From the IMG/VR virus record IMGVR_UViG_2703718801_000022: 42,217 bases of DNA; one strand, written 5' to 3'. Every line of letters starts with the position of its first letter. The first letter of the stretch is position 1. Below are positions 8,455-27,142 of the stretch, piece by piece. The position numbers were made by a program, and so were the translations under genes. This DNA comes from a virus. Lineage: Duplodnaviria; Heunggongvirae; Uroviricota; Caudoviricetes. Below the pieces are notes generated by a model. It was not told the origin of the DNA. It did not search any database and saw nothing but the letters and a program-made list of their open reading frames with translations.

Positions 8455-8974
8455 TAAAAATCAAATTGTCAGATATAAGGGTCGAGTATTGCATACGCAA
8501 AATTTCTCGGCCCTTTGTGCATCTGATCTTGAGCTGAAGAAAGTATCTGATGCCTTTGCCCAGTATTGGAAAACGGGATACCATCCATCTCTTGGTAAAG
8601 ATGCTGCATTTGCTCGTCCGACAGAAATGCTTAAACTAAATGTCAGGCATACTCATGTCGATAACCAAGACTATATTCCAGAAGATAGTGATAAAAAACA
8701 CACTGGTAAAAAATCATCTTGGGATGCATGGAAAAATATAGCGTCTGTACAAGTAAAATGCATACCAACAAGTGATTGCTTTTTAGTTTATTCGGTAAAT
8801 CACAATCGTGATGCGCTGGTTATGTTTTTTGTTGACGCAGATGCTCACAACATAACTGAGCAAGAAGAGTTTAAAGAGGAAGCAATCACTATCAGTTATC
8901 AATTCTTTGAGAAAACAAAAACAGAACCAATGCCTTTAGAAGAAGATCTTTTTTCTGATAAATGGAAGGAATAG
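8429..8974 (+). CDS. YafO-like toxin domain protein
   Basis: AGGAAA RBS; product resembles YafO ribosome-dependent mRNA interferase as recalled (LGKDAAF...LKLNVRHTHV...CFLVYSV...DADAH); AT-rich. Confidence 0.45.
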   Translation: MSSSASQNDKNQIVRYKGRVLHTQNFSALCASDLELKKVSDAFAQYWKTGYHPSLGKDAAFARPTEMLKLNVRHTHVDNQDYIPEDSDKKHTGKKSSWDAWKNIASVQVKCIPTSDCFLVYSVNHNRDALVMFFVDADAHNITEQEEFKEEAITISYQFFEKTKTEPMPLEEDLFSDKWKE

Positions 8975-9066
8975 TCCGCAGCGCAGGCTTTTTTGTGGAC
9001 GAAACAAAAGTCAGTGCTACACTCATTGACGCCACATTGAGGTGGCTTATAGATGGAAATTTCACA

Positions 9067-9228
9067 ATGAAAAAAGCATTTGCTGCACTGTTCGTTTTGT
9101 TGTCTCTGGTAGCTTCAACTCAGGCCTTTGCCGGTCGTTGTCAGCACGACAGCGACACTGCTGCTGACGGCTCACGCTGTGGTGGGCGTTCTGCGGATTC
9201 CCGCCCAGGCGGCGGTGGCATTCGTTAA
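9067..9228 (+). CDS. Small secreted Cys-containing peptide (hypothetical)
   Basis: 53 aa with clear signal peptide then Gly/Arg/Asp-rich tail with two Cys; weak RBS. Confidence 0.3.
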   Translation: MKKAFAALFVLLSLVASTQAFAGRCQHDSDTAADGSRCGGRSADSRPGGGGIR

Positions 9229-9260
9229 AAACAAGGCCGCGAAAGCGGCCTGTGACATGT
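9229..9260. terminator. Terminator hairpin downstream of minus-strand antirepressor gene
   Basis: GGCCGC-GAAA-GCGGCC stem followed on the minus strand by TTGTTTTT. Confidence 0.55.
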
Positions 9261-9277
9261 CACGATAGTTCCGTTTT

Positions 9278-9534
9278 GCACATCCCTGTGCCGCCGCCCG
9301 TCAGAAGAACCCTGCCTTGTCGTTGATGTATTCCGCGTGGGTCTGGATATCACGCAGGCATTTACTCACACCGACGATGTAGCAGAACATGGTGGTCAGC
9401 TCCGCCGCCGCGCCCGATACGTCGTGCCCGTCTTCCTGTAACTGGTTCAGCAGATTCATCAGCAGTGAGTTCTCCGTCAGGCCGAGAACACCAGACGGAG
9501 AATGAATCAGACTGCGGTAGCCGGGCTTCAGTGG
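9278..9534. repeat. Inverted repeat, right copy (3' end of second antirepressor gene plus 23 bp)
   Basis: Reverse complement matches 7894-8150. Confidence 0.85.
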
Positions 9535-10239
9535 ATAACCATAACATTTTGTCTGTGTTTTAATTGCCTCACGAAGCGCATCTAACATCTTGACTGCCAC
9601 TTCATCATTCTCTGATGCAACTCCAGCAGGGAGATACTCCCCTTCAAGCGGAACCCGGGCAACAAGAGACAACGCTTCGGCGAATTGATCTTCACCAATT
9701 TCTTTGTACGAACAGCCAAAGTGAGATTTTAGTGACGACCACATGGTAATGATCGCCCTCGCCTGTTTTTCTTTTGGCAGAGACTGACCGCGACTCATGA
9801 CGAGTTGTTTAATGGCTTCCTGCTGTTCAGTCGTGATTTTACCCGGCAACACCTTTTTAGCTTTGCGCGGGTTAACCACATGGCCTTTAGTCCAGTACTC
9901 GTAGAGCACATCATCACACTCTTCCTGATACTGGATTACCTTATCGCGGATTTCAGGGCGGACTTTGTTTGGACTGATGCTGTTCAACCAAGCTGCCAAT
10001 TTTCGTAAAGCCATACAAATCATGGCTTGCACCCCTCCGGCAGAAGGTATGGTGATTTCCACCATACCCTTCGAGAAGCGTTGAGAAATCTTCTTATGTT
10101 GAGATTTCCAGTCTAGACCCATTCCCTCAACGATAGGTTTCATTGGGGTGTACGGTTCGCCGTTGTGATTGACAACATAAAGTTCTACGCCGTGGAATGG
10201 CACGTTGATAGTAGATACCGCTGTTGCTATACTCGTCAT
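9301..10239 (-). CDS. Antirepressor, AntA/P22-Ant-like N-terminal domain plus shared Ant C-terminal domain
   Basis: 312 aa; N-terminus FHGVELYVVNHNGEPYTPMKPIVEGMGLDW; downstream of Arc-like gene as in P22 immI; C-terminus shared with 7417-8127. Confidence 0.75.
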   Translation of the reverse strand: MTSIATAVSTINVPFHGVELYVVNHNGEPYTPMKPIVEGMGLDWKSQHKKISQRFSKGMVEITIPSAGGVQAMICMALRKLAAWLNSISPNKVRPEIRDKVIQYQEECDDVLYEYWTKGHVVNPRKAKKVLPGKITTEQQEAIKQLVMSRGQSLPKEKQARAIITMWSSLKSHFGCSYKEIGEDQFAEALSLVARVPLEGEYLPAGVASENDEVAVKMLDALREAIKTQTKCYGYPLKPGYRSLIHSPSGVLGLTENSLLMNLLNQLQEDGHDVSGAAAELTTMFCYIVGVSKCLRDIQTHAEYINDKAGFF

Positions 10240-10312
10240 GTCGTTAATTCCTATACGTAGTTTTACGATACTGAAGCCCTTACGGTCTGGCCACCGTTGG
10301 GCTTCGCTGTTT
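10240..10312 (+). ncRNA. Candidate sar-like antisense RNA covering the antirepressor RBS
   Basis: -35 TTGATA (10205-10210), 17-bp spacer, -10 TATACT (10228-10233); nested hairpin GAAGCCC..ACGGT..ACCGT..GGGCTTC (10273-10305) + TGTTTTAT; antisense to ant RBS. Confidence 0.4.
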
Positions 10313-10479
10313 TATGCCACGCTATTCTTCTCACCAGTGAGTCCATACACTTTCCTCAACTGATAGATAATCTCTGTATTGAACTTTCGGCATTCTTTTT
10401 CACCATTTCTTTCAATAGCTAACTTCACATCGTCCGGAAAACGAATTCGTCGTTGACACATCTCTTTTGCTTTTTGCAT
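10312..10479 (-). CDS. Arc-like ribbon-helix-helix repressor
   Basis: 55 aa from ATG with AAGGAGAG RBS; RIRFPDDVKLAIERNGEKECRKFNTEIIYQL resembles P22 Arc; immediately upstream of ant. Confidence 0.7.
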   Translation of the reverse strand: MQKAKEMCQRRIRFPDDVKLAIERNGEKECRKFNTEIIYQLRKVYGLTGEKNSVA

Positions 10480-10599
10480 CTCATCTCTCCTTTGCCCCAC
10501 GGTGGGGCAAAATAATTGTCACACCGTGCGTCATTGATGTCAAGCACACGGTGAGGCATACTTCAATCATTGCAAGTAACTCAATATTTGGTGAAGAAC
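10480..10599. promoter_or_regulatory. Divergent Arc-like/Mnt-like control region with palindromic operators
   Basis: Perfect 19-bp palindrome TTGCCCCACGGTGGGGCAA (10492-10510); inverted CACCGTG (10522-10528) / CACGGTG (10547-10553). Confidence 0.5.
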
Positions 10600-11031
10600 A
10601 TGAGCAGAGAAGATCCACAACTAAGGATCAGACTTCCCATTGAAGTAAAAGAAAAAATAGAAATTTCTGCAAAAGCCAATAAGCGATCAATGAACGCTGA
10701 AATAGTACAACGTCTTGACACCAGCTTCCTGAAAGATATTCATGAAGATGACGTAATTTCTGCTTATGAAGCAAAAATCATTGCAAACAACGCACGGCAT
10801 GAAATATCAAATATCATTTTCAAAAGAACCTTTAATGAAATTAATAAAAAAATAACACTTGGACATACAAGTTTTTATATAAACCTTAATGACCTTGAAC
10901 TGGAATCACTTGCAGATAATGATTACCAGGTCATCTTTGAAAAAACATTTAATAAGCTCAATGAACTAGGTTACATCATCTGTGAAAATTCATGGGATGC
11001 AGATGGTTTTGGAATTGAAATACCTGAATAG
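10600..11031 (+). CDS. Mnt-like ribbon-helix-helix regulator with extended C-terminal domain
   Basis: N-terminus MSREDPQLRIRLPIEVKEKIEISAKANKRSMNAEIVQRL resembles P22 Mnt; 143 aa vs 83 aa for Mnt; AT-rich. Confidence 0.6.
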   Translation: MSREDPQLRIRLPIEVKEKIEISAKANKRSMNAEIVQRLDTSFLKDIHEDDVISAYEAKIIANNARHEISNIIFKRTFNEINKKITLGHTSFYINLNDLELESLADNDYQVIFEKTFNKLNELGYIICENSWDADGFGIEIPE

Positions 11032-11098
11032 GAAGAACAAAAGGCGTGTGCATATTACACGTCTTTAATATAATTGAAAAACACCACATTACTGATGT

Positions 11099-11689
11099 AT
11101 GTCTGTTACAACAAGGAGCGACATTTTGAAAACCATATCTATATTAAAGGTTGCATTAGGCGTCGCTATTATTTTGACGCTCTCAATATTGTTTTATTTT
11201 TACAACAAAAAAACTGCTATTGCTCTTGATGGTCACGCGGCAAACTCATTTTTCTCAGAGTACATAGTACCGCTATCAGGAAGCAGTATAACAAATAAAT
11301 ATACTGACTATGACATCAAATATGGAATTGATGATGGGGAGTCTATTGTATTACACGTAATCATTAAAAACCTAATGACAGTAAATAAAAATGCAGACTT
11401 CAACGATAAAAATACAATACACCACAACCACAGCAAAACATTAATTTCTTATAGTAACAACATCTATACGGATAAATACCTAAAATACATATCAGAAGAT
11501 ACAATAAAAGCAACCCGCGAAAAGTTAAAAAACATATATTGTGCATCCGGCAGTTTTCACAAATTATCGCCGCAAGAGCGTTTATTCTACGAAGCAAGAA
11601 AACAACGCAAGTCGATAATATTACATTATTATGCTGATTCAGGGGAGTCACTCATATTTAATATTGGGGTTTCCCCTGAATCATGCTAA
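11099..11689 (+). CDS. AT-rich membrane-anchored protein at the sieA-equivalent position
   Basis: N-terminal TM helix, Asn/Lys/Tyr-rich body; alternative TTG start at 11124 after AAGGAG; lies between ejection-protein genes and mnt-like gene. Confidence 0.5.
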   Translation: MSVTTRSDILKTISILKVALGVAIILTLSILFYFYNKKTAIALDGHAANSFFSEYIVPLSGSSITNKYTDYDIKYGIDDGESIVLHVIIKNLMTVNKNADFNDKNTIHHNHSKTLISYSNNIYTDKYLKYISEDTIKATREKLKNIYCASGSFHKLSPQERLFYEARKQRKSIILHYYADSGESLIFNIGVSPESC

Positions 11690-11700
11690 AGGTGTTTAAC

Positions 11701-14700
11701 TCACCGCATCACCGGATCCACTTGGTTTATTAGTGGCGCAATCCAGAACAGGTTATTGCCGGGTATCAGGGTTCGGACATTATGCACAATACGATCACCG
11801 GCATCACCATTCAACACTCCTGCGGTCACATCAATGATGCTATCCGCAAGACCAAATGACGGTCCGAATAGAGATCCTACGAATCCACGACTGGCATACC
11901 TAGACTGTGTTCCAGTGCCAAATAAAGCCCCCAGCCCAACAGCACCACCAGTAGCCTTTTCAGCCATGTTGTTATATTCCATCAATGGCCCAAGAATACC
12001 GGATCTATCTATACCCTCAAGCACCAGCTTCTCTGGTGACCAGTCAACATTTTTCCCTTTCGATGCTTCTTTAAGCGCATAGACCAGTGAGCCAAGAGCA
12101 ATCTGAAATGCAGTGCCATAATAAAATTGCGCAGTTCCTTCCTGTAACCCACCAAGTAGCGCACGGTTGTATGAAGCCGTTGTGAATGATTTAAACTGAA
12201 ATATCGTTCGCCCCATTGGAGTACTCGCCCATAAAGGTGTGTCACCAATACCGGGGGTGATGATAGTGTTATTAACGTCTTTCAGAACCGCTGACTGGAA
12301 TACTCCGGCAACGTACTGATCGTCCCATTTATCAAAGTTACCAATGTGCCATCCATCAATTACCTCACCATGTTTCTCGAACTCACTGCGAATACGCGCA
12401 GCCATATTGTCGTTGATACCGAGTTTTGCCATGCGACGTGCAGAAAACGCACCAGACAAAATACCGTCTGACGTGAGCATTCCGCTCATAGATTTGTTTA
12501 TGTCATTAAATCGATCCATGAGTGTCAGCTTGCCGAAGGCATCAGTAATTCGCTCCATTCCTGCTTCGACTGCTGTTGTCCTGGAAGAACTGTCAATCAG
12601 ATCACCAATTGCACGAGAACGTGAATGTAGTACAGTTTCCAATCCAATCCCCATCTTCAACATCTCTTCTTTGCTGGCCTTAAATGCCGGTGATTGGGAT
12701 ATCTGAGAAGCATAGCCTTTCATGGTGTTACGGAAACCATTAACCATAACCCCTCTGGCCAGATCTGGAATAGCTGATACTGTCATTCCACCGAGTTTGG
12801 TCGTGAAGTTCACATCCCGCAGAAAAGCGCCAGCACGAACAAAAAACGAAGACGGGTCATCAGGCATACCATATGTACCAACAAGACGATCGCGTAATGC
12901 TGTTATGTCTCTGAGATCATTTGCTCTTGATTTTGAAAGTCTGGACTGTTCTTTTCGTAATTCCTTTTCGTACTTTCGCATTAATGAATCGAGTTTACCC
13001 TGAGGAACAACTTCACCATTGCTCTCATAGCGTGCTTTCAGATTTGCCACACTTTCGTCATATTTCGCCTTTATTTTTTCAGGCACTTCCCGTAACAGAC
13101 TGTCATATTCGTCCTCAATTAATTGCAGACGCTCAGTCATAGTTCGTTTGCCAAACGTTCTCGTCAACTCAATTTCTGCTGCCGCTTCACGGATATGACG
13201 CTGCAGCACGTAATTCACATCACTTTCAAGATAATCCCTGATAAGACTATCAGGCACATTTAATGTTCTTTCTTTCGTACTACCTGCGGCTTTTACAGAA
13301 AATACGCTGACAAAATCCTGTGGAACCTTAGCACCAGTAATTTTATTAATTACGATATCCGCTGCAATTTCAGCATCCTCAGGATCCAGTGTTTTATTTC
13401 CTCTCGACCACCAGTCAACCAAAATACGTCGAAATTTATCGCGTTCACTGATTATTTTTCCAACTTTATATATACGTGGAAAATAGCTTGCCTGGCCTAA
13501 TGCTTTCAGTTCTTCATCTGGCGGTAATAAACCAAGCTTTTGCATTTCAACCTTCACCCGATTTAATACAGTTCGCATCGCCTGCGCCGTTTCCTGAACA
13601 ACAGGATTAGCATGCACATCACCGCTTCGCATAGCATTCCCAACCTGCTGACGAAATGAATCAAAACTCATGTCACCACCATCAGCTTTATACTTTGCGT
13701 ATGCCTGTTTATTTCCGACAACAACAGCAGCTTCTTCACGCTGCCATCCACGTGTACGGGTTTCTACAGCTACCGGTGTTTCAATCCCCCTTTCATTTCC
13801 TTTAAGGGTGAAATTATTTTCGGCTAACTCCAGCGTTGTTTTTCGCACTGTCTTGGACGGAGACTCCATTAACCTTGTCAAAGGAGTAAGATAGCTCCCT
13901 GCTTTCCATGCAGCCTTTCCAACCACCCCACCGGAAACAGGGGTTAAATCATCCAGAGTCGCTGTATCAATTTTCATAGCACCAACACTACCACCATCGG
14001 AAAGCGAAGCGGCAGCCCTGTCAGTCGCTGATGTAATGCTCATATTATCAAGAGCATCAGCAACCTCACGTGTGGCTGCAGCCCGGACGGATGGCGAAAG
14101 CGCAACACCAGCACTGGCAAACACGCCGCTCATCATCGCACCCGCTGCAACGTGAGCGGCACTTTCACCCCATGAGCGTGTTATTTGCTGATTATTCAGC
14201 ACAACCTCGCTTAATGCTGTACCGGCAGCACCAATCGCAATCTGTGAGCCAATACGCGCCAGTGCCCCTCCTTGAGCACCGGGGATAAACATTGACGCAA
14301 CAGTAACCGGATCCATTCCCGCAGCAATACTGGCAAGAGTTCCAACTACGCCAGCATCAGACAATAAACGTCTGTCTTCATTTTCATCATCTATCTGCTG
14401 CTTAATCCACGCCGTTTCCTCTGGCGATCGGGAATCTGCAAATTTCGCCCCCCAGTATTCATAACCGTGCAACTCATTTTTATCAGCATATGGGTTATAA
14501 CCTTCGACCGGTTCAAACTGTCTGGCTGGTCGGAAAAAACCAGCCAGAATATTGTTCTGTCGCATTGCAGCCCCCCATACGGAAGGCTCCGGTGGCAATG
14601 GCTCAGGATTAGCCCCTTCCGGAAGGGCAACATCAAACCCAGTTTGTTCCGGCAAAACATTACCTGACGGGATCAGTCCGTTATTAAGATCTTCAGCTTG

Positions 14701-14715
14701 TGCATAAACTGGCAT
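11701..14715 (-). CDS. Large internal virion/ejection protein (T7 gp16 position)
   Basis: 1004 aa; last large gene of the structural operon; assignment by size and gene order. Confidence 0.55.
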   Translation of the reverse strand: MPVYAQAEDLNNGLIPSGNVLPEQTGFDVALPEGANPEPLPPEPSVWGAAMRQNNILAGFFRPARQFEPVEGYNPYADKNELHGYEYWGAKFADSRSPEETAWIKQQIDDENEDRRLLSDAGVVGTLASIAAGMDPVTVASMFIPGAQGGALARIGSQIAIGAAGTALSEVVLNNQQITRSWGESAAHVAAGAMMSGVFASAGVALSPSVRAAATREVADALDNMSITSATDRAAASLSDGGSVGAMKIDTATLDDLTPVSGGVVGKAAWKAGSYLTPLTRLMESPSKTVRKTTLELAENNFTLKGNERGIETPVAVETRTRGWQREEAAVVVGNKQAYAKYKADGGDMSFDSFRQQVGNAMRSGDVHANPVVQETAQAMRTVLNRVKVEMQKLGLLPPDEELKALGQASYFPRIYKVGKIISERDKFRRILVDWWSRGNKTLDPEDAEIAADIVINKITGAKVPQDFVSVFSVKAAGSTKERTLNVPDSLIRDYLESDVNYVLQRHIREAAAEIELTRTFGKRTMTERLQLIEDEYDSLLREVPEKIKAKYDESVANLKARYESNGEVVPQGKLDSLMRKYEKELRKEQSRLSKSRANDLRDITALRDRLVGTYGMPDDPSSFFVRAGAFLRDVNFTTKLGGMTVSAIPDLARGVMVNGFRNTMKGYASQISQSPAFKASKEEMLKMGIGLETVLHSRSRAIGDLIDSSSRTTAVEAGMERITDAFGKLTLMDRFNDINKSMSGMLTSDGILSGAFSARRMAKLGINDNMAARIRSEFEKHGEVIDGWHIGNFDKWDDQYVAGVFQSAVLKDVNNTIITPGIGDTPLWASTPMGRTIFQFKSFTTASYNRALLGGLQEGTAQFYYGTAFQIALGSLVYALKEASKGKNVDWSPEKLVLEGIDRSGILGPLMEYNNMAEKATGGAVGLGALFGTGTQSRYASRGFVGSLFGPSFGLADSIIDVTAGVLNGDAGDRIVHNVRTLIPGNNLFWIAPLINQVDPVMR

Positions 14716-17432
14716 TATTTAGATCCCCACGAAAAGTAATCTTTAAATTTGTCCATACGTTCGTTATGCAGGCGCTGATACTGCTCATCCAGAGCGCGAT
14801 GCTTGTCTTTGAAGTTTCGTATAGCCTGTCCACGCATAATTTCTTCCTGCTCGTACTGCTCCCGTTCCTGCTGCATTTTCTTATAAGGTTCCCAATCTTC
14901 TAGTGATGGTTCCCAACGCATAGGACGCCCATGTTTGTTATAAAACGGCTGGACCCGATCGATGCCATTTTCATCCTTAGTTCTTACCATAATGGCGTAA
15001 TCACCATTACGAGGTGTTAACACGTCAGGGGTTATGAATAATTCTCCATTAATACGACTCTCAGGGGTTTTTGTCTCAACTACAGGAGCATTACCTGACG
15101 TGATCCCAAGCAACGTCGGACTGGTTGTTATAATCTCTTTGCGCTCACCGTACATCAGCCGTTCTTTTTCAGCTTTCCACTGCGCCGCCTGCCAGCCTGA
15201 CGGCCCATATTGATAAAGCGCCTCCGGTGCATATTTCATAAACTGCGCTTCTCCGTTAACCTCGCTGATACTCCAGGTGCGGGCTATCTGCTGGTTGGTC
15301 ATTTGCTTCGCTACGTCAGCGTTACCACCAGCAACGCGGTAGTTAATGTCATACAGCGTCTGATAGTCATTACGGAATCTAGCTGCTTCCGGCGTCTGGT
15401 CATCCGCAGACGGATCCCAACGGAACCACTGCGCCATATTGCTGACAGCAGAATTCATCGCCTTGCTGCGATCATTTTTGTACTCTTTTGAACTCTGCGT
15501 TGATGCCAATTGAGCTTTAAGAGCATCGGTCTGGTTGTACGTAAGGTTCTGCGCCTGCTCGATAGCCGCATCAGCAGACATGCCAGAATCAGTTAGTTGC
15601 TTAACAGTCAGATAAAAACCCTGCATATCCTTCGGCATATTTCCAATAGATGCATTGTCTGTTTCATATAACCGACTAAACAGTTCAGCCGCATTTTTAA
15701 CCACTTCCTGATTGCTGGATCGGGATACTGCTGAAAGCTGCGTGATGACCTGCGAAGGCATTATGCCAGTCTGAGCCACAAGCCGAACAACCCCATCATG
15801 AGTGGAGGCATCATTAATACGAAAGTTCTGCGCCATTTCTGTGTAATCAGCAGCTTTCTGCATTGACTTGTTGCTTGGGTCTAATTTTTCACCTATTGTC
15901 AGCGCCTCATTAAATCTGCGTGAATCCCGTTGCGCCTGAATTGCTTCATTTGATCTCTGAAGCAATGCAGACAATTTTCCGTAAGCATCGAGTTTTAACG
16001 CATAGTGAGGATCGTTAACCTCAGGCTTCACTTTCTGCATTTCTTCTTGCTGCTGAGAAGGAGGCAAATACTGAATTGCCTGGAATATTCTCGCGTTATC
16101 AATCGCTATATCCAGTTGGTTGATTATTTTATCTGCGTTTTTTCCATACCCCCTGATGATGGTCTCCTGAGCCGGTATATAATCTGGAACCTCACCGTTA
16201 TATAGCTGGGCCATGGTGTTATTAATAGCTGGCTCAAGCTGTTCTAATATTAACTTCCTTTGCTTTTCTATCTGACTATTAGCAAGGTTATCTATTTGAT
16301 AAATAGTCAGCGGATCCATTCCAGTTTTATTTTTTCTATATCGGGAAAGCCACCCTTGTGTTTCTGATGGAAGATTTCTGATAAATTCTTCTTCTGATAT
16401 TTCACCTTTACGTGGATCACCGACTTTGGCGATCAGTTTATCCACGTTACCCATCCCCCAGTTATATGCTGCTCCGGCCAATATTTCGGAGCCGTACTTA
16501 CCATACAGTTGATTTACATAGTCACTGGCGAGCATTTCATGCTGTTGTTCGTCCGTAGGGTTGTATTCAACGCCACGCTTGGCCGCCAGTTCTTTCCCTG
16601 TGCCCGGCATTAACTGGTATTTCCCCTGGGCTCTCTCTCCAGAAGATGTTATCGGTCCTTCAAGAAGACTACCATCAGGATTAAAATGTCGATCGCCTGA
16701 TTCAACAAGGCGTATGGCACGCATGTCCATGCCTCCAGAATCATTTTTCTGAAACAGACCATTTAGCCATCCTTCTGGATTGGCAGCGGCATAATTCTTC
16801 GCCCGCGTTTCTGTGGCACTGCGATCATCACTTTCTATTTCTTCCAGAATGCGTTCTTGTGACCATCCCCTGGCAGCTCCATATCTGGCAATGGCTACCA
16901 TTCTGGAATTTCTGGCTAAAGTGGCAGTTTGCGGGTCATTCCAGGCATCCGCTTCATTTTGTATCCATAATTTTCTCGTTGCCTGATATTGCTCATCTTC
17001 ATAGGCATTTGTCTGCCCTATCTCATGTCTGAGAACTCCAGTACTGAACTGAATTTTCTGTGTTCTGGCTTGTTGCAAAAACATATTTCTTGCTGCTTCA
17101 TCAGTCAATGAAGCAGCTATTTCTTCCACATCCTGATCAAATCCAGATATGTACTCTTGCCCCTTACCAATCGCATTTTTGCCTTGTTGTGCATAAAAAC
17201 CGGTTTGAGGGTTATAAAGACGTTCATTGCTGCGCTGATTAAGCTGAAGGATGGCATCCTGAGACAATGCAACATTCGCTTTCTGCCTGGCTTCACCATA
17301 TGCCACCGCATACTGATCTGCGACATTCGCCAGCACCTGACCTGCTTGAGGAACATCGAAGGTCTGAAAACCACCGGTTTGCACACCACGACTTTGCACC
17401 TGGCGTCCGGATGTAGTAGGAACAACTGGCAT
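14715..17432 (-). CDS. Internal virion protein with lytic transglycosylase (SLT) domain
   Basis: 905 aa; SLT-like motifs GERAQGKYQLMPGTG and AAYNWGMGNV. Confidence 0.65.
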   Translation of the reverse strand: MPVVPTTSGRQVQSRGVQTGGFQTFDVPQAGQVLANVADQYAVAYGEARQKANVALSQDAILQLNQRSNERLYNPQTGFYAQQGKNAIGKGQEYISGFDQDVEEIAASLTDEAARNMFLQQARTQKIQFSTGVLRHEIGQTNAYEDEQYQATRKLWIQNEADAWNDPQTATLARNSRMVAIARYGAARGWSQERILEEIESDDRSATETRAKNYAAANPEGWLNGLFQKNDSGGMDMRAIRLVESGDRHFNPDGSLLEGPITSSGERAQGKYQLMPGTGKELAAKRGVEYNPTDEQQHEMLASDYVNQLYGKYGSEILAGAAYNWGMGNVDKLIAKVGDPRKGEISEEEFIRNLPSETQGWLSRYRKNKTGMDPLTIYQIDNLANSQIEKQRKLILEQLEPAINNTMAQLYNGEVPDYIPAQETIIRGYGKNADKIINQLDIAIDNARIFQAIQYLPPSQQQEEMQKVKPEVNDPHYALKLDAYGKLSALLQRSNEAIQAQRDSRRFNEALTIGEKLDPSNKSMQKAADYTEMAQNFRINDASTHDGVVRLVAQTGIMPSQVITQLSAVSRSSNQEVVKNAAELFSRLYETDNASIGNMPKDMQGFYLTVKQLTDSGMSADAAIEQAQNLTYNQTDALKAQLASTQSSKEYKNDRSKAMNSAVSNMAQWFRWDPSADDQTPEAARFRNDYQTLYDINYRVAGGNADVAKQMTNQQIARTWSISEVNGEAQFMKYAPEALYQYGPSGWQAAQWKAEKERLMYGERKEIITTSPTLLGITSGNAPVVETKTPESRINGELFITPDVLTPRNGDYAIMVRTKDENGIDRVQPFYNKHGRPMRWEPSLEDWEPYKKMQQEREQYEQEEIMRGQAIRNFKDKHRALDEQYQRLHNERMDKFKDYFSWGSK

Positions 17433-27065: not shown

Positions 27066-27142
27066 GTGGCATTAACTCAGTTGGACAGAGCAACCGCCTT
27101 CTAAGCGGTTTGTCGCAGGTTCGAATCCTGCATGCCACGCCA
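27066..27142 (+). tRNA. tRNA-Arg (anticodon UCU)
   Basis: Cloverleaf by eye: acceptor GTGGCAT/ATGCCAC, anticodon stem ACCGC/GCGGT with loop CTTCTAA, T-arm GCAGG-TTCGAAT-CCTGC, 3' GCCA. Confidence 0.85.

What the first reader, a model, noticed from the sequence alone, without database searches (positions are those of the whole stretch)
10205..10312. Candidate sar-like antisense RNA across the antirepressor ribosome-binding site
On the strand opposite the AntA-type antirepressor gene there is a textbook sigma70 promoter (TTGATA / 17 bp / TATACT) just inside the gene's 5' end. It is followed about 35 nt later by a nested hairpin (outer GAAGCCC/GGGCTTC, inner ACGGT/ACCGT) and TGTTTTAT. This predicts an RNA of about 70 nt antisense to the antirepressor RBS, the same arrangement as the sar RNA of P22 immI, and the Arc-like gene lies immediately upstream as in P22.
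Basis: partly seen in the sequence, partly recalled or inferred. Interest (0 to 1): 0.5.

Follow-up and report, generated by a model that had tools for sequence, protein, structure and literature searches.

The report
P22-type sar antisense RNA gene
This is an unannotated copy of the sar antisense RNA known from Salmonella phage P22, sitting opposite the ribosome-binding site of an antirepressor gene in an epsilon15-like E. coli phage, so it is a real but ordinary feature.

Summary
TTGATA (10205-10210), a 17-bp spacer and TG-extended TATACT (10228-10233) lie on the + strand inside ant codons 3-12. A nested hairpin (10273-10305) and a T-run (10310-13) follow.

The element is a homologue of P22 sar, not merely sar-like. 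Rfam RF00262 matches 10241-10308 over its full length at 40.1 bits (E 4.9e-6), 3 bits below the curated cut-off. The TL-2011b copy differs by 2 nt and passes at 44.8 bits.

The geometry matches P22. The -10 lies in ant codons 3-4, the predicted start G10240 abuts the ant ATG, and the terminator T-run overlaps the arc stop codon.

In 77 of 80 phage contigs with a P22_AR_N ant gene the same cassette is present. Across 35 distinct variants, 94% of cells stay paired and 8 pairs carry compensatory changes. The -10/TG bases are invariant even at synonymous sites.

Expression and repression are inferred. The verdict is a new member of a known kind, of low to moderate interest. In passing, a second antirepressor gene in the window follows isrK and C4 RNA matches.

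The parts
10205..10210 (+). Psar -35 hexamer TTGATA
   Evidence: Found by the promoter scan. TTGAT[A/T] is conserved in nearly all of the variant loci. It overlaps ant codons 10-12; the third position of codon 11 (the -35 G) has diversity 0.17 against a mean of 0.44.
10225..10233 (+). Extended -10: TG(C) at 10225-10227 plus TATACT at 10228-10233. This equals ant codons 5, 4 and 3 on the opposite strand.
   Evidence: TTGCTATACT is invariant between the window, P22, TL-2011b and CUS-3; all variants keep TAnnnT and the TG; the third codon positions of codons 3-5 are invariant. This is the only run of three such positions in 130 codons.
10240..10313 (+). Predicted sar RNA of about 71-74 nt, starting at G10240 and ending in the T-run
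   Evidence: Rfam RF00262 matches 10241-10308 at 40.1 bits, E 4.9e-6, model positions 1-68 of 68. Custom model R1 gives 64.1 bits. The start site is inferred from identical geometry to the mapped P22 sar, where the -10 is followed by 6 nt and then G, the base next to the ant ATG.
10240..10269 (+). Stem-loop 1: GUCGU (10240-10244) pairs with ACGAU (10265-10269). The loop holds UUCCU (10248-10252), which is complementary to the ant Shine-Dalgarno AGGAA.
   Evidence: Seen in the fold of the window RNA. All 35 distinct variants form a 5-8 bp helix starting at nt 1-4 with an anti-SD motif in the loop. Three of the five pairs show compensatory changes.
10273..10313 (+). Stem-loop 2, an intrinsic terminator. 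Outer stem 10273-10279 / 10299-10305, inner stem 10282-10286 / 10293-10297, loop CUGGCC, then GCUG and UUUU (10310-10313).
   Evidence: Helices 2 and 3 are 97-99% paired in relatives, with 5 pairs changed on both sides. On the opposite strand no U-run follows the stem, so it terminates only in the sar direction (sequence).
9301..10239 (-). ant, the target gene: a P22-type antirepressor of 312 aa. Its Shine-Dalgarno AGGAA is the complement of 10248-10252.
   Evidence: Pfam P22_AR_N, E 3.8e-44. PHROG 524 and 245, anti-repressor Ant.
10312..10479 (-). Arc-like ribbon-helix-helix gene (55 aa counted from ATG 10479). Its stop codon TAA at 10312-10314 lies inside the sar T-run.
   Evidence: ORF list. 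33% identity over 40 aa to P22 Arc, E 3e-5. PHROG 228, Arc-like repressor, E 2e-5. TL-2011b annotates the same 55-aa gene.
10515..10543 (-). Pant-like promoter TTGACA / 17 / GACAAT that would drive arc-ant. A 21-bp palindrome, TTTGCCCCAC-G-GTGGGGCAAA (10491-10511), lies at its predicted start site and is a candidate operator.
   Evidence: The operator role is an inference only.
10600..11031 (+). Mnt-like repressor gene, divergent from arc
   Evidence: Pfam Arc domain, E 1.2e-14. PHROG hits to Arc-like families.

Best explanation
The segment 10205-10313 is the promoter and gene of a homologue of the phage P22 sar RNA. It lies in an immI-type module (mnt-like, arc-like, ant) carried by an epsilon15/phiV10-like E. 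coli phage that is about 97% identical to TL-2011b.

A sigma70 promoter embedded in ant codons 3-12 would start transcription at G10240, the base next to the ant start codon. The transcript runs away from ant and ends after about 72 nt at an intrinsic terminator that overlaps the arc stop codon.

The RNA folds into two hairpins. The loop of the first displays UUCCU, which is complementary to the ant Shine-Dalgarno. The second is the terminator.

Because it is fully complementary to the arc-ant intercistronic leader, the RNA would pair with ant mRNA, occlude the ribosome-binding site and block Ant translation. This would apply to mRNA made from the local Pant-like promoter and to read-through from the upstream virion-gene operon. 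Stray antirepressor would then not interfere with establishment or maintenance of lysogeny.

Shown here: homology, layout, conserved structure, and nucleotide-level constraint on the promoter. Inferred from P22 and not shown here: transcription, the RNA ends, pairing and repression.
For: Homology to P22 sar:
- Rfam sar gives a full-length hit at E 4.9e-6.
- The TL-2011b-type copy, 2 nt different, passes Rfam's cut-off at 44.8 bits.
- A direct alignment with the annotated P22 sar shows TTGCTATACT..CATGT and GAAGCCCTxAC..GGGCTTC conserved, with promoter, RNA 5' end and terminator in the same positions relative to ant and arc.

Conservation across relatives:
- The cassette is present in 77 of 80 phage contigs that encode a P22_AR_N Ant.
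- In 35 distinct variants, 94.4% of cells are paired against 39-47% when partners are slid.
- Eight pairs have changes on both sides. The covariation score is 0.373 against 0.205 in shuffles, reached by 0 of 500 shuffles.
- Many G-U pairs lie on the sar strand (for example GU:24, UG:21, GU:19). These would be A-C mismatches on the ant mRNA strand, so the fold is selected on the + strand.
- All 35 of 35 variants keep a 5' hairpin with the anti-SD motif in its loop.

Promoter constraint:
- All variants keep TTGAT[A/T], the 17-bp spacer, TG and TAnnnT, even where the encoded residues change (S/N/I and I/L).
- Third codon positions of codons 3-5 are invariant, against 5 of 118 elsewhere.
- Codons 2-12 have the lowest synonymous-site diversity of 118 sliding windows, while their non-synonymous diversity is above average.

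Context:
- Ant, Arc-like and Mnt-like genes are present.
- The module sits between an internal virion protein gene and the tail fibre gene on the same strand, as the P22 'ant moron' does (PMC2629481).

Function of P22 sar: PMC12197685, PMC7968456, PMC12111858.
Against: - There are no expression data for this phage. The start site and 3' end are extrapolated from P22.
- The Rfam score of 40.1 bits is below the curated cut-off of 43.
- This copy carries two substitutions in stem 2 (T10281 and T10298; both are G in TL-2011b). They create a U-U mismatch and cost about 1.5 kcal/mol.
- Stem-loop 1 is weak, at -3.0 kcal/mol.
- Promoter and terminator consensus matches alone are within chance expectation.
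- The covariation alignment was fitted to the model, and the sequences are related, so the shuffle control overstates significance.
Confidence: 0.85

Rival explanations
1. The element is a decaying relic. It descends from sar but no longer works in this prophage, either because the promoter is silent or because the RNA is too unstable or poorly terminated to repress ant.
For: This copy has two substitutions in stem 2 relative to TL-2011b. They drop it below Rfam's cut-off and weaken the fold from -25.1 to -23.6 kcal/mol. Stem-loop 1 is only -3.0 kcal/mol.
Against: - The promoter is a better consensus match than P22's own (TTGATA against GTGTTA at -35, same TG-TATACT).
- The seven G/C-rich outer pairs, the five inner pairs and a four-U tail are intact.
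- The T10298 variant recurs in independent contigs (L014, L070, L079).
- ant, arc and mnt are all intact ORFs.
- An identical copy exists in a complete E. coli genome, and 38 genomes carry 80% or more of the module.
Confidence: 0.07
2. The promoter is real, but it acts mainly by transcriptional interference. Convergent transcription would collide with or occlude Pant or late read-through polymerases, and the RNA product would be incidental rather than a base-pairing inhibitor of translation.
For: Psar and the Pant-like promoter are convergent and about 270 bp apart. From memory of Liao et al. 1987, which could not be retrieved here, interference between the two promoters was reported in vitro for P22.
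Against: - Selection acts on the RNA fold itself: compensatory changes, and G-U pairs specific to the sar strand.
- Selection also keeps the anti-SD motif in a loop in 35 of 35 variants.
- Neither would be needed for pure interference.
- Reviews describe P22 sar as blocking ant translation by pairing (PMC12197685, PMC7968456).
Confidence: 0.04
3. There is no antisense RNA. The conserved hairpins would function in the sense arc-ant mRNA, for example as a processing site or for translational coupling, and the apparent promoter would be a by-product of conserved Ant N-terminal codons.
For: Any hairpin also forms, in complement, on the mRNA strand. The -35 overlaps the conserved residues Ile-Asn.
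Against: - G-U pairs on the + strand become A-C mismatches on the mRNA strand.
- The residues encoded across the -10 vary (S/N/I, I/L) while TAnnnT, the TG and the synonymous third positions stay fixed.
- The U-run follows the stem only on the + strand.
- The homologous P22 RNA is experimentally established and was recovered by small-RNA sequencing (PMC13397905).
Confidence: 0.03

Closest known systems
sar RNA of Salmonella phage P22 (Rfam RF00262; immI region mnt-arc-sar-ant)
   Same: - It is cis-antisense to the arc-ant intercistronic region and the ant ribosome-binding site.
- The promoter -10 lies in ant codons 3-4, with an identical TTGCTATACT.
- The 5' end abuts the ant ATG.
- There are two stem-loops, with the anti-SD sequence in loop 1.
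- The terminator overlaps the arc stop codon.
- The module sits between virion/ejection-protein genes and the tail spike or tail fibre gene.
   Different: - Stem 1 has a different sequence (GUCGU/ACGAU against GUUGGU/ACUGAC).
- The inner stem and loop of hairpin 2 differ (ACGGU-CUGGCC-ACCGU against CUGU-UACC-GCAG).
- The -35 (TTGATA) and the U-tail are closer to consensus than in P22.
- The predicted length is about 72 nt, against 68/69.
- The Arc and Mnt partners are only distant relatives of P22's, and Ant has a different C-terminal domain.
- The host phage is epsilon15/phiV10-like rather than P22-like.
sar copies in P22-like E. coli phages such as CUS-3
   Same: The promoter and the 5' half of the RNA are nearly identical to the window up to about 10286. 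Rfam scores the CUS-3 copy at 84.6 bits.
   Different: In CUS-3 the 3' half is P22-like and no arc gene follows; the record annotates a 'bsq2 boundary sequence' there. A mosaic junction therefore lies inside the RNA gene.
c4 antisense RNA of phages P1/P7 (Rfam RF01695), with isrK
   Same: It is also a small RNA that blocks the ribosome-binding region of an antirepressor mRNA (PMC12197685). A copy sits elsewhere in this window, at 7285-7368, in front of a second antirepressor gene.
   Different: The c4 gene lies on the same strand as its target, upstream of it, and it has an unrelated sequence and fold. It does not match at 10205-10313.
Other cis-antisense RNAs that target a ribosome-binding site (lambda/P22 OOP, IS10 RNA-OUT)
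   Same: They follow the same general logic: a short, hairpin-rich, terminator-ended RNA made from the opposite strand pairs with the target mRNA.
   Different: They are not homologous, and their targets and positions differ. The only OOP-related signal was a weak model hit (18.5 bits) at the P22 oop terminator.

Membership tests
sar RNA (Rfam RF00262) | Significant full-length match to the family's covariance model (sequence plus structure) | tested here: met
   10241-10308 on the + strand, model positions 1-68 of 68, 40.1 bits, E 4.9e-6. A custom model built from 26 variants gives 64.1 bits, E 5e-11, and this is the only hit in the window.
sar RNA (Rfam RF00262) | Score at or above Rfam's curated gathering cut-off of 43 bits. 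This is an operational threshold, not a biological feature. | tested here: not met
   The window scores 40.1 bits against 43 and is absent from the gathering-mode run. The TL-2011b/L008 copy, 2 nt different, scores 44.8 and passes. Rfam also misses 11 of 17 variant loci tested that the custom model and synteny identify, so the model is narrow.
sar RNA (Rfam RF00262) | Encoded antisense between the arc stop codon and the ant start codon, covering the ant Shine-Dalgarno | tested here: met
   The RNA spans 10240-10313. The ant ATG is at 10239-10237 (-), the arc stop TAA at 10312-10314 (-), and the ant SD AGGAA is the complement of 10248-10252.
sar RNA (Rfam RF00262) | Own sigma70 promoter (Psar) inside the first ant codons, placing the start site next to the ant ATG | tested here: met
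   TTGATA / 17 / TG-n-TATACT at 10205-10233 has the same register as the annotated P22 Psar. It is conserved at synonymous sites across relatives. Promoter activity itself was not tested.
sar RNA (Rfam RF00262) | Two stem-loops: a 5' hairpin and a 3' terminator hairpin | tested here: met
   Both appear in the MFE and centroid folds. 94.4% of cells are paired and 8 pairs are compensatory across 35 variants. The 5' hairpin is present in 35 of 35 variants.
sar RNA (Rfam RF00262) | A ~70-nt transcript is made and represses Ant translation by pairing | not testable with these tools
   No expression data are available for this phage. The property is known for P22 only (PMC12197685, PMC7968456, PMC13397905).
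P22-type immI module | An Ant antirepressor with the P22_AR_N domain, preceded by a small ribbon-helix-helix Arc gene and a divergent Mnt-like repressor gene | tested here: met
   Ant hits Pfam P22_AR_N at E 3.8e-44. The Mnt-like protein hits the Pfam Arc domain at E 1.2e-14. The Arc-like protein has no Pfam or NCBIfam hit, but hits PHROG 228 at E 2e-5 and P22 Arc by BLASTP at E 3e-5. The Arc assignment is therefore weak.
c4 antisense RNA (RF01695) | Match to the C4 model at this locus | tested here: not met
   C4 does not match in 9000-11500 even at E <= 10. The window's C4 hit is at 7285-7368.

The most novel reading that the evidence does not exclude
The sar cassette may be a portable antisense lock rather than a P22-lineage peculiarity.
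- It is welded to the first codons of P22_AR_N antirepressor genes and travels with them into unrelated phage types, here an epsilon15-like podovirus.
- Mosaic recombination junctions fall inside the RNA gene itself, and many variants are invisible to the current Rfam model.

In this phage the cassette would work beside a second, unrelated antisense system. isrK and c4 matches at 7184-7368 precede a Bro-N antirepressor that shares the same C-terminal ~90 aa. That would give two independently gated antirepressors aimed at one target.

A sar-like element antisense to the ribosome-binding site of a non-ant gene in a Coralloluteibacterium prophage hints that the cassette can be re-targeted.
Probability: 0.35. 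Interest if true: 0.5.

Novelty: new member of a known kind. Interest (0 to 1): 0.3.

Why it matters
Practical value:
- The copy is unannotated here and in the RefSeq record of TL-2011b, a phage from an EHEC O103:H25 outbreak strain. Threshold-based Rfam annotation misses it by 3 bits.
- Antirepressors decide whether a prophage stays silent. Knowing that ant is held by an antisense RNA as well as by protein repressors matters for predicting induction of such prophages in pathogenic E. coli.

Wider value:
- The comparison shows that the sar family is considerably broader than its Rfam seed.
- Its promoter is a clear case of a regulatory signal constraining synonymous sites of the gene it regulates.
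- The RNA gene is a recombination boundary in the fast-changing 'ant moron'.

None of this overturns current understanding.

Tried and rejected
- The genome-contig scan with the Ant protein gave only 4 loci. None has sar at the ant start, so it was not useful for covariation.
- A plain MAFFT alignment with RNAalifold recovered only stem 2, because the 3' arm of stem 1 was misaligned by register shifts. I fixed this with a covariance model and per-sequence folding. Nine rows are still mis-registered in helix 1, so its 85% pairing is an underestimate.
- Pfam and NCBIfam gave no hit for the Arc-like protein.
- The primary papers (Liao 1987; Schaefer & McClure 1997) are not held. Mechanistic details of P22 sar beyond what the reviews state are from memory and are marked as such.
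- Searches for RF00262 found nothing, and no paper mentioning TL-2011b was identified as dealing with its immunity region from titles and abstracts; none was opened.
- I considered that the inner-stem motif ACGGT/ACCGT might relate to the CACGGTG/CACCGTG repeats in the Pant region as a protein-binding site. I did not pursue it, because the motif is short and belongs to the arc-proximal mosaic segment.
- I first thought the sar-less loci L029, L030 and L069 had ant under c4 control. The isrK/C4 hits there are on the opposite strand, divergent from ant, so I dropped that reading. Only L006 (Chromatium) has C4 directly upstream of ant on the same strand.

Full report
**What is there.** On the + strand, TTGATA (10205-10210), a 17-bp spacer and TATACT (10228-10233) form a 10/12 sigma70 match with a TG two bases upstream of the -10. 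The ant ORF (9301-10239, - strand) starts at 10239, so the promoter lies in ant codons 3-12. Downstream lies a nested hairpin. Its outer stem is 10273-10279 / 10299-10305, its inner stem is 10282-10286 / 10293-10297, and it is followed by GCTG and TTTT at 10310-13. An Arc-like ORF on the - strand ends with TAA at 10312-10314, inside that T-run.

**Is it more than chance?** The consensus matches alone are not.
- The 4-kb scan found fewer promoter-like sites than shuffles did (3 against 8.7). Terminator-like sites were near expectation (5 against 3.2).
- The exact promoter pattern with up to one mismatch turns up in 13 of 100 shuffles of the window.
- The predicted RNA folds better than all 200 shuffles (z = -2.7).

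The decisive evidence is comparative.

**Homology to P22 sar.** Rfam's sar model (RF00262) matches 10241-10308 (+) over its full length at 40.1 bits, E 4.9e-6. This is 3 bits under the curated cut-off of 43.

The annotated P22 record places sar at 15021-15090 (-), Psar at 15097-15125, the ant ATG at 15091 and the arc stop at 15022. Aligned with the window, TTGCTATACT, CATGT, GAAGCCCTxAC and GGGCTTC are conserved, and every landmark is in the same register. By that register the RNA should start at G10240, seven bases after the -10 and adjacent to the ant ATG. It should end in the U-run at 71-74 nt.

The TL-2011b copy differs at two stem-2 positions (G instead of T at 10281 and 10298) and passes Rfam's cut-off at 44.8 bits.

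**Genomic context.**
- The window is about 97% identical to Escherichia phage TL-2011b over 87% of its first 25 kb. It is related to phiV10 and other epsilon15-like podoviruses over about 45%, and these lack this region.
- The RefSeq record of TL-2011b annotates Ant and an Arc-like repressor but no RNA.
- Ant carries Pfam P22_AR_N (E 3.8e-44); AntA did not appear among the hits at E <= 0.01. The divergent gene at 10600-11031 has the Arc/Mnt ribbon-helix-helix domain.
- The Arc-like protein is a weak relative. It has no Pfam or NCBIfam hit, hits PHROG 228 at E 2e-5, and is 33% identical over 40 aa to P22 Arc.
- The module lies between an internal virion protein gene (11701-14715, -) and the tail fibre gene (4444-6648, -). 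arc-ant is co-oriented with these genes, and mnt plus one more ORF are opposed. This mirrors the P22 'ant moron' between gene 16 and the tailspike gene (PMC2629481).

**Comparative test of the RNA.** A search of viral contigs with the Ant N-terminal domain returned 80 loci. In 77 of them the same cassette lies directly 5' of the ant ATG on the opposite strand. L029, L030 and L069 lack it, and one copy is cut by a contig end.

A covariance model built from 26 variants scores the window at 64.1 bits and finds nothing else in the window. On 35 distinct sequences:
- 94.4% of cells form standard pairs, against 39-47% when partners are slid by 1-3 columns.
- Eight of 17 pairs show changes on both sides.
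- The covariation score is 0.373 against 0.205 in shuffles, reached by 0 of 500 shuffles.

The alignment was fitted to the model and the sequences are related, so these numbers are generous. However, helix 1 is actually under-counted, because nine rows are mis-registered. Independent single-sequence folding gives a 5-8 bp 5' helix with a UUCC, CUCC or UCUC motif in the loop in 35 of 35 variants.

Many pairs are G-U on the sar strand. They would be A-C mismatches on the ant mRNA strand. The fold is therefore selected on the + strand. This argues against a purely sense-strand structure.

**Comparative test of the promoter.** All variants keep TTGAT[A/T], the 17-bp spacer, the TG and a TAnnnT hexamer.
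- The -10 equals ant codons 3-4 and the TG lies in codon 5. The encoded residues vary (Ser/Asn/Ile and Ile/Leu), yet the critical bases do not.
- Third codon positions of codons 3, 4 and 5 are invariant. Only 5 of 118 third positions in codons 13-130 are invariant, and several of those are Met or Trp codons. There is no other run of three.
- Codons 2-12 have the lowest third-position diversity of 118 sliding windows (0.31 against a median of 0.43). They also have the lowest ratio of synonymous-site to non-synonymous-site diversity (1.5 against 3.3).

This is the signature of a nucleotide-level signal overlapping the coding sequence.

**Mechanism.** For P22, reviews state that sar pairs with ant mRNA across the ribosome-binding site and blocks translation initiation. 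They also state that this is needed for proper control of antirepressor during establishment of lysogeny (PMC12197685, PMC7968456). ant is additionally transcribed from the late promoter, and Arc acts on Pant (PMC12111858). P22 sar was recovered by small-RNA sequencing (PMC13397905).

I infer the same mechanism here. The RNA is fully complementary to the arc-ant leader. Loop 1 presents UUCCU opposite the ant SD AGGAA. The co-orientation with upstream virion genes makes read-through transcripts likely. The hairpin is not followed by a U-run on the - strand, so it should not terminate arc-ant transcription. The steps not shown are promoter activity, the RNA ends, pairing and repression.

**Differences from P22.**
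- Stem 1 and the inner part of stem 2 differ in sequence but not in form.
- The -35 and the U-tail are closer to consensus than in P22.
- This particular copy has a U-U mismatch in stem 2 (-23.6 against -25.1 kcal/mol for the TL-2011b type) and a weak stem-loop 1 (-3.0 kcal/mol).
- CUS-3 has the window's 5' half joined to P22's 3' half, with no arc gene. E. coli genomes show matches that stop at the terminator or in mid-hairpin. Mosaic junctions therefore fall inside or at the edge of the RNA gene.
- 205 of 5426 complete E. coli genomes match part of the query. Of these, 38 carry 80% or more of the Psar-sar-arc segment, and one is identical.
- Rfam at its gathering threshold detects only 6 of 17 variant loci tested, so its model is narrow.

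**Rival explanations.**
- A non-functional relic is possible but unlikely. The promoter, stems, U-tail and all three protein genes are intact, and the T10298 variant recurs in other contigs.
- Pure transcriptional interference does not explain selection on the fold and on the loop motif.
- A sense-strand structure with a fortuitous promoter is contradicted by the strand-specific G-U pairs, the fixed synonymous sites and the one-sided U-run.

**Verdict.** Three corrections apply: the element is a homologue rather than an analogue of sar, the 5' hairpin was missed, and the antirepressor is P22_AR_N type. It is a new, unannotated member of a well-known RNA family in a phage type where it has not been annotated. 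Interest is low to moderate.

**Seen in passing.**
- The gathering-mode Rfam run also found isrK (7184-7260) and C4 antisense RNA (7285-7368) immediately upstream of a second antirepressor-like gene, which has a Bro-N domain (7402-8127, +).
- That protein shares its last ~100 residues (84 of 101 identical) with the sar-controlled Ant, as part of a 292-bp inverted DNA repeat.
- The phage thus appears to carry two antirepressors with a common C-terminal domain, each behind a different known antisense-RNA system.

Noticed in passing
window 7184-7368 (+), upstream of ORF 7402-8127 (+): Rfam gathering-level hits to isrK (RF01394, 7184-7260, 67.2 bits) and C4 antisense RNA (RF01695, 7285-7368, 66 bits) lie directly in front of a second antirepressor-like gene with a Bro-N domain. 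This is a P1/P7-type antisense control cassette in the same phage as the sar cassette. TL-2011b has the same pair.
   Followed up: partly
window 7859-8150 and 9278-9569: A 292-bp inverted repeat, 92% complementary, has 1127 bp between its arms. It encodes the near-identical C-terminal ~100 aa (84 of 101 identical) of the two antirepressors, Bro-N type and P22_AR_N type. The arms could allow inversion of the segment between them, and they suggest both proteins act on the same target.
   Followed up: partly
window 8402-8974 (+): An ORF with a weak YafO toxin domain (Pfam E 9.2e-6) lies between the two antirepressor genes. It is annotated as a YafO family toxin in TL-2011b. A small ORF at 8275-8454 precedes it and could be a partner.
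   Followed up: no
window 10491-10511 and 10517-10558: A perfect 10+10 palindrome, TTTGCCCCAC-G-GTGGGGCAAA, lies at the predicted start site of the Pant-like promoter. An inverted pair TGTCACACCGTG / CACGGTGAGGCA spans the region between the divergent arc and mnt-like genes. These are candidate Arc and Mnt operators. The sequences are unrelated to the P22 operators.
   Followed up: no
L007 3432-3506 (-), Coralloluteibacterium thermophilus contig: A sar-like element scores 37.3 bits with the custom model. It has a GAGGCCCCCGGUG...CACCGGGGGCUUC terminator and a TTGCGC/16/TACGCT promoter-like site. It lies antisense to the ribosome-binding site and ATG (about 3507, +) of an unrelated gene downstream of ant. 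The ant gene itself overlaps an Arc-like ORF and has no sar. The cassette may have been re-targeted.
   Followed up: partly
L006 2348-2432 (+), Chromatium okenii contig; L029, L030, L069: In Chromatium a C4 RNA match (57.2 bits) sits directly upstream of a P22_AR_N ant gene on the same strand, so this ant family can also be found behind a c4-type leader. The three viral loci without sar have a different ant 5' end, and isrK/C4 cassettes that are divergent from ant.
   Followed up: partly
window 27066-27139 (+): A tRNA gene is found by the Rfam tRNA model at 63.8 bits, inside the phage region.
   Followed up: no
window 9234-9251 (-): A strong terminator-like hairpin, AGGCCGC-TTTC-GCGGCCT followed by a T-run, lies just after the ant stop codon. 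This matches the position of the ant terminator annotated in P22.
   Followed up: no
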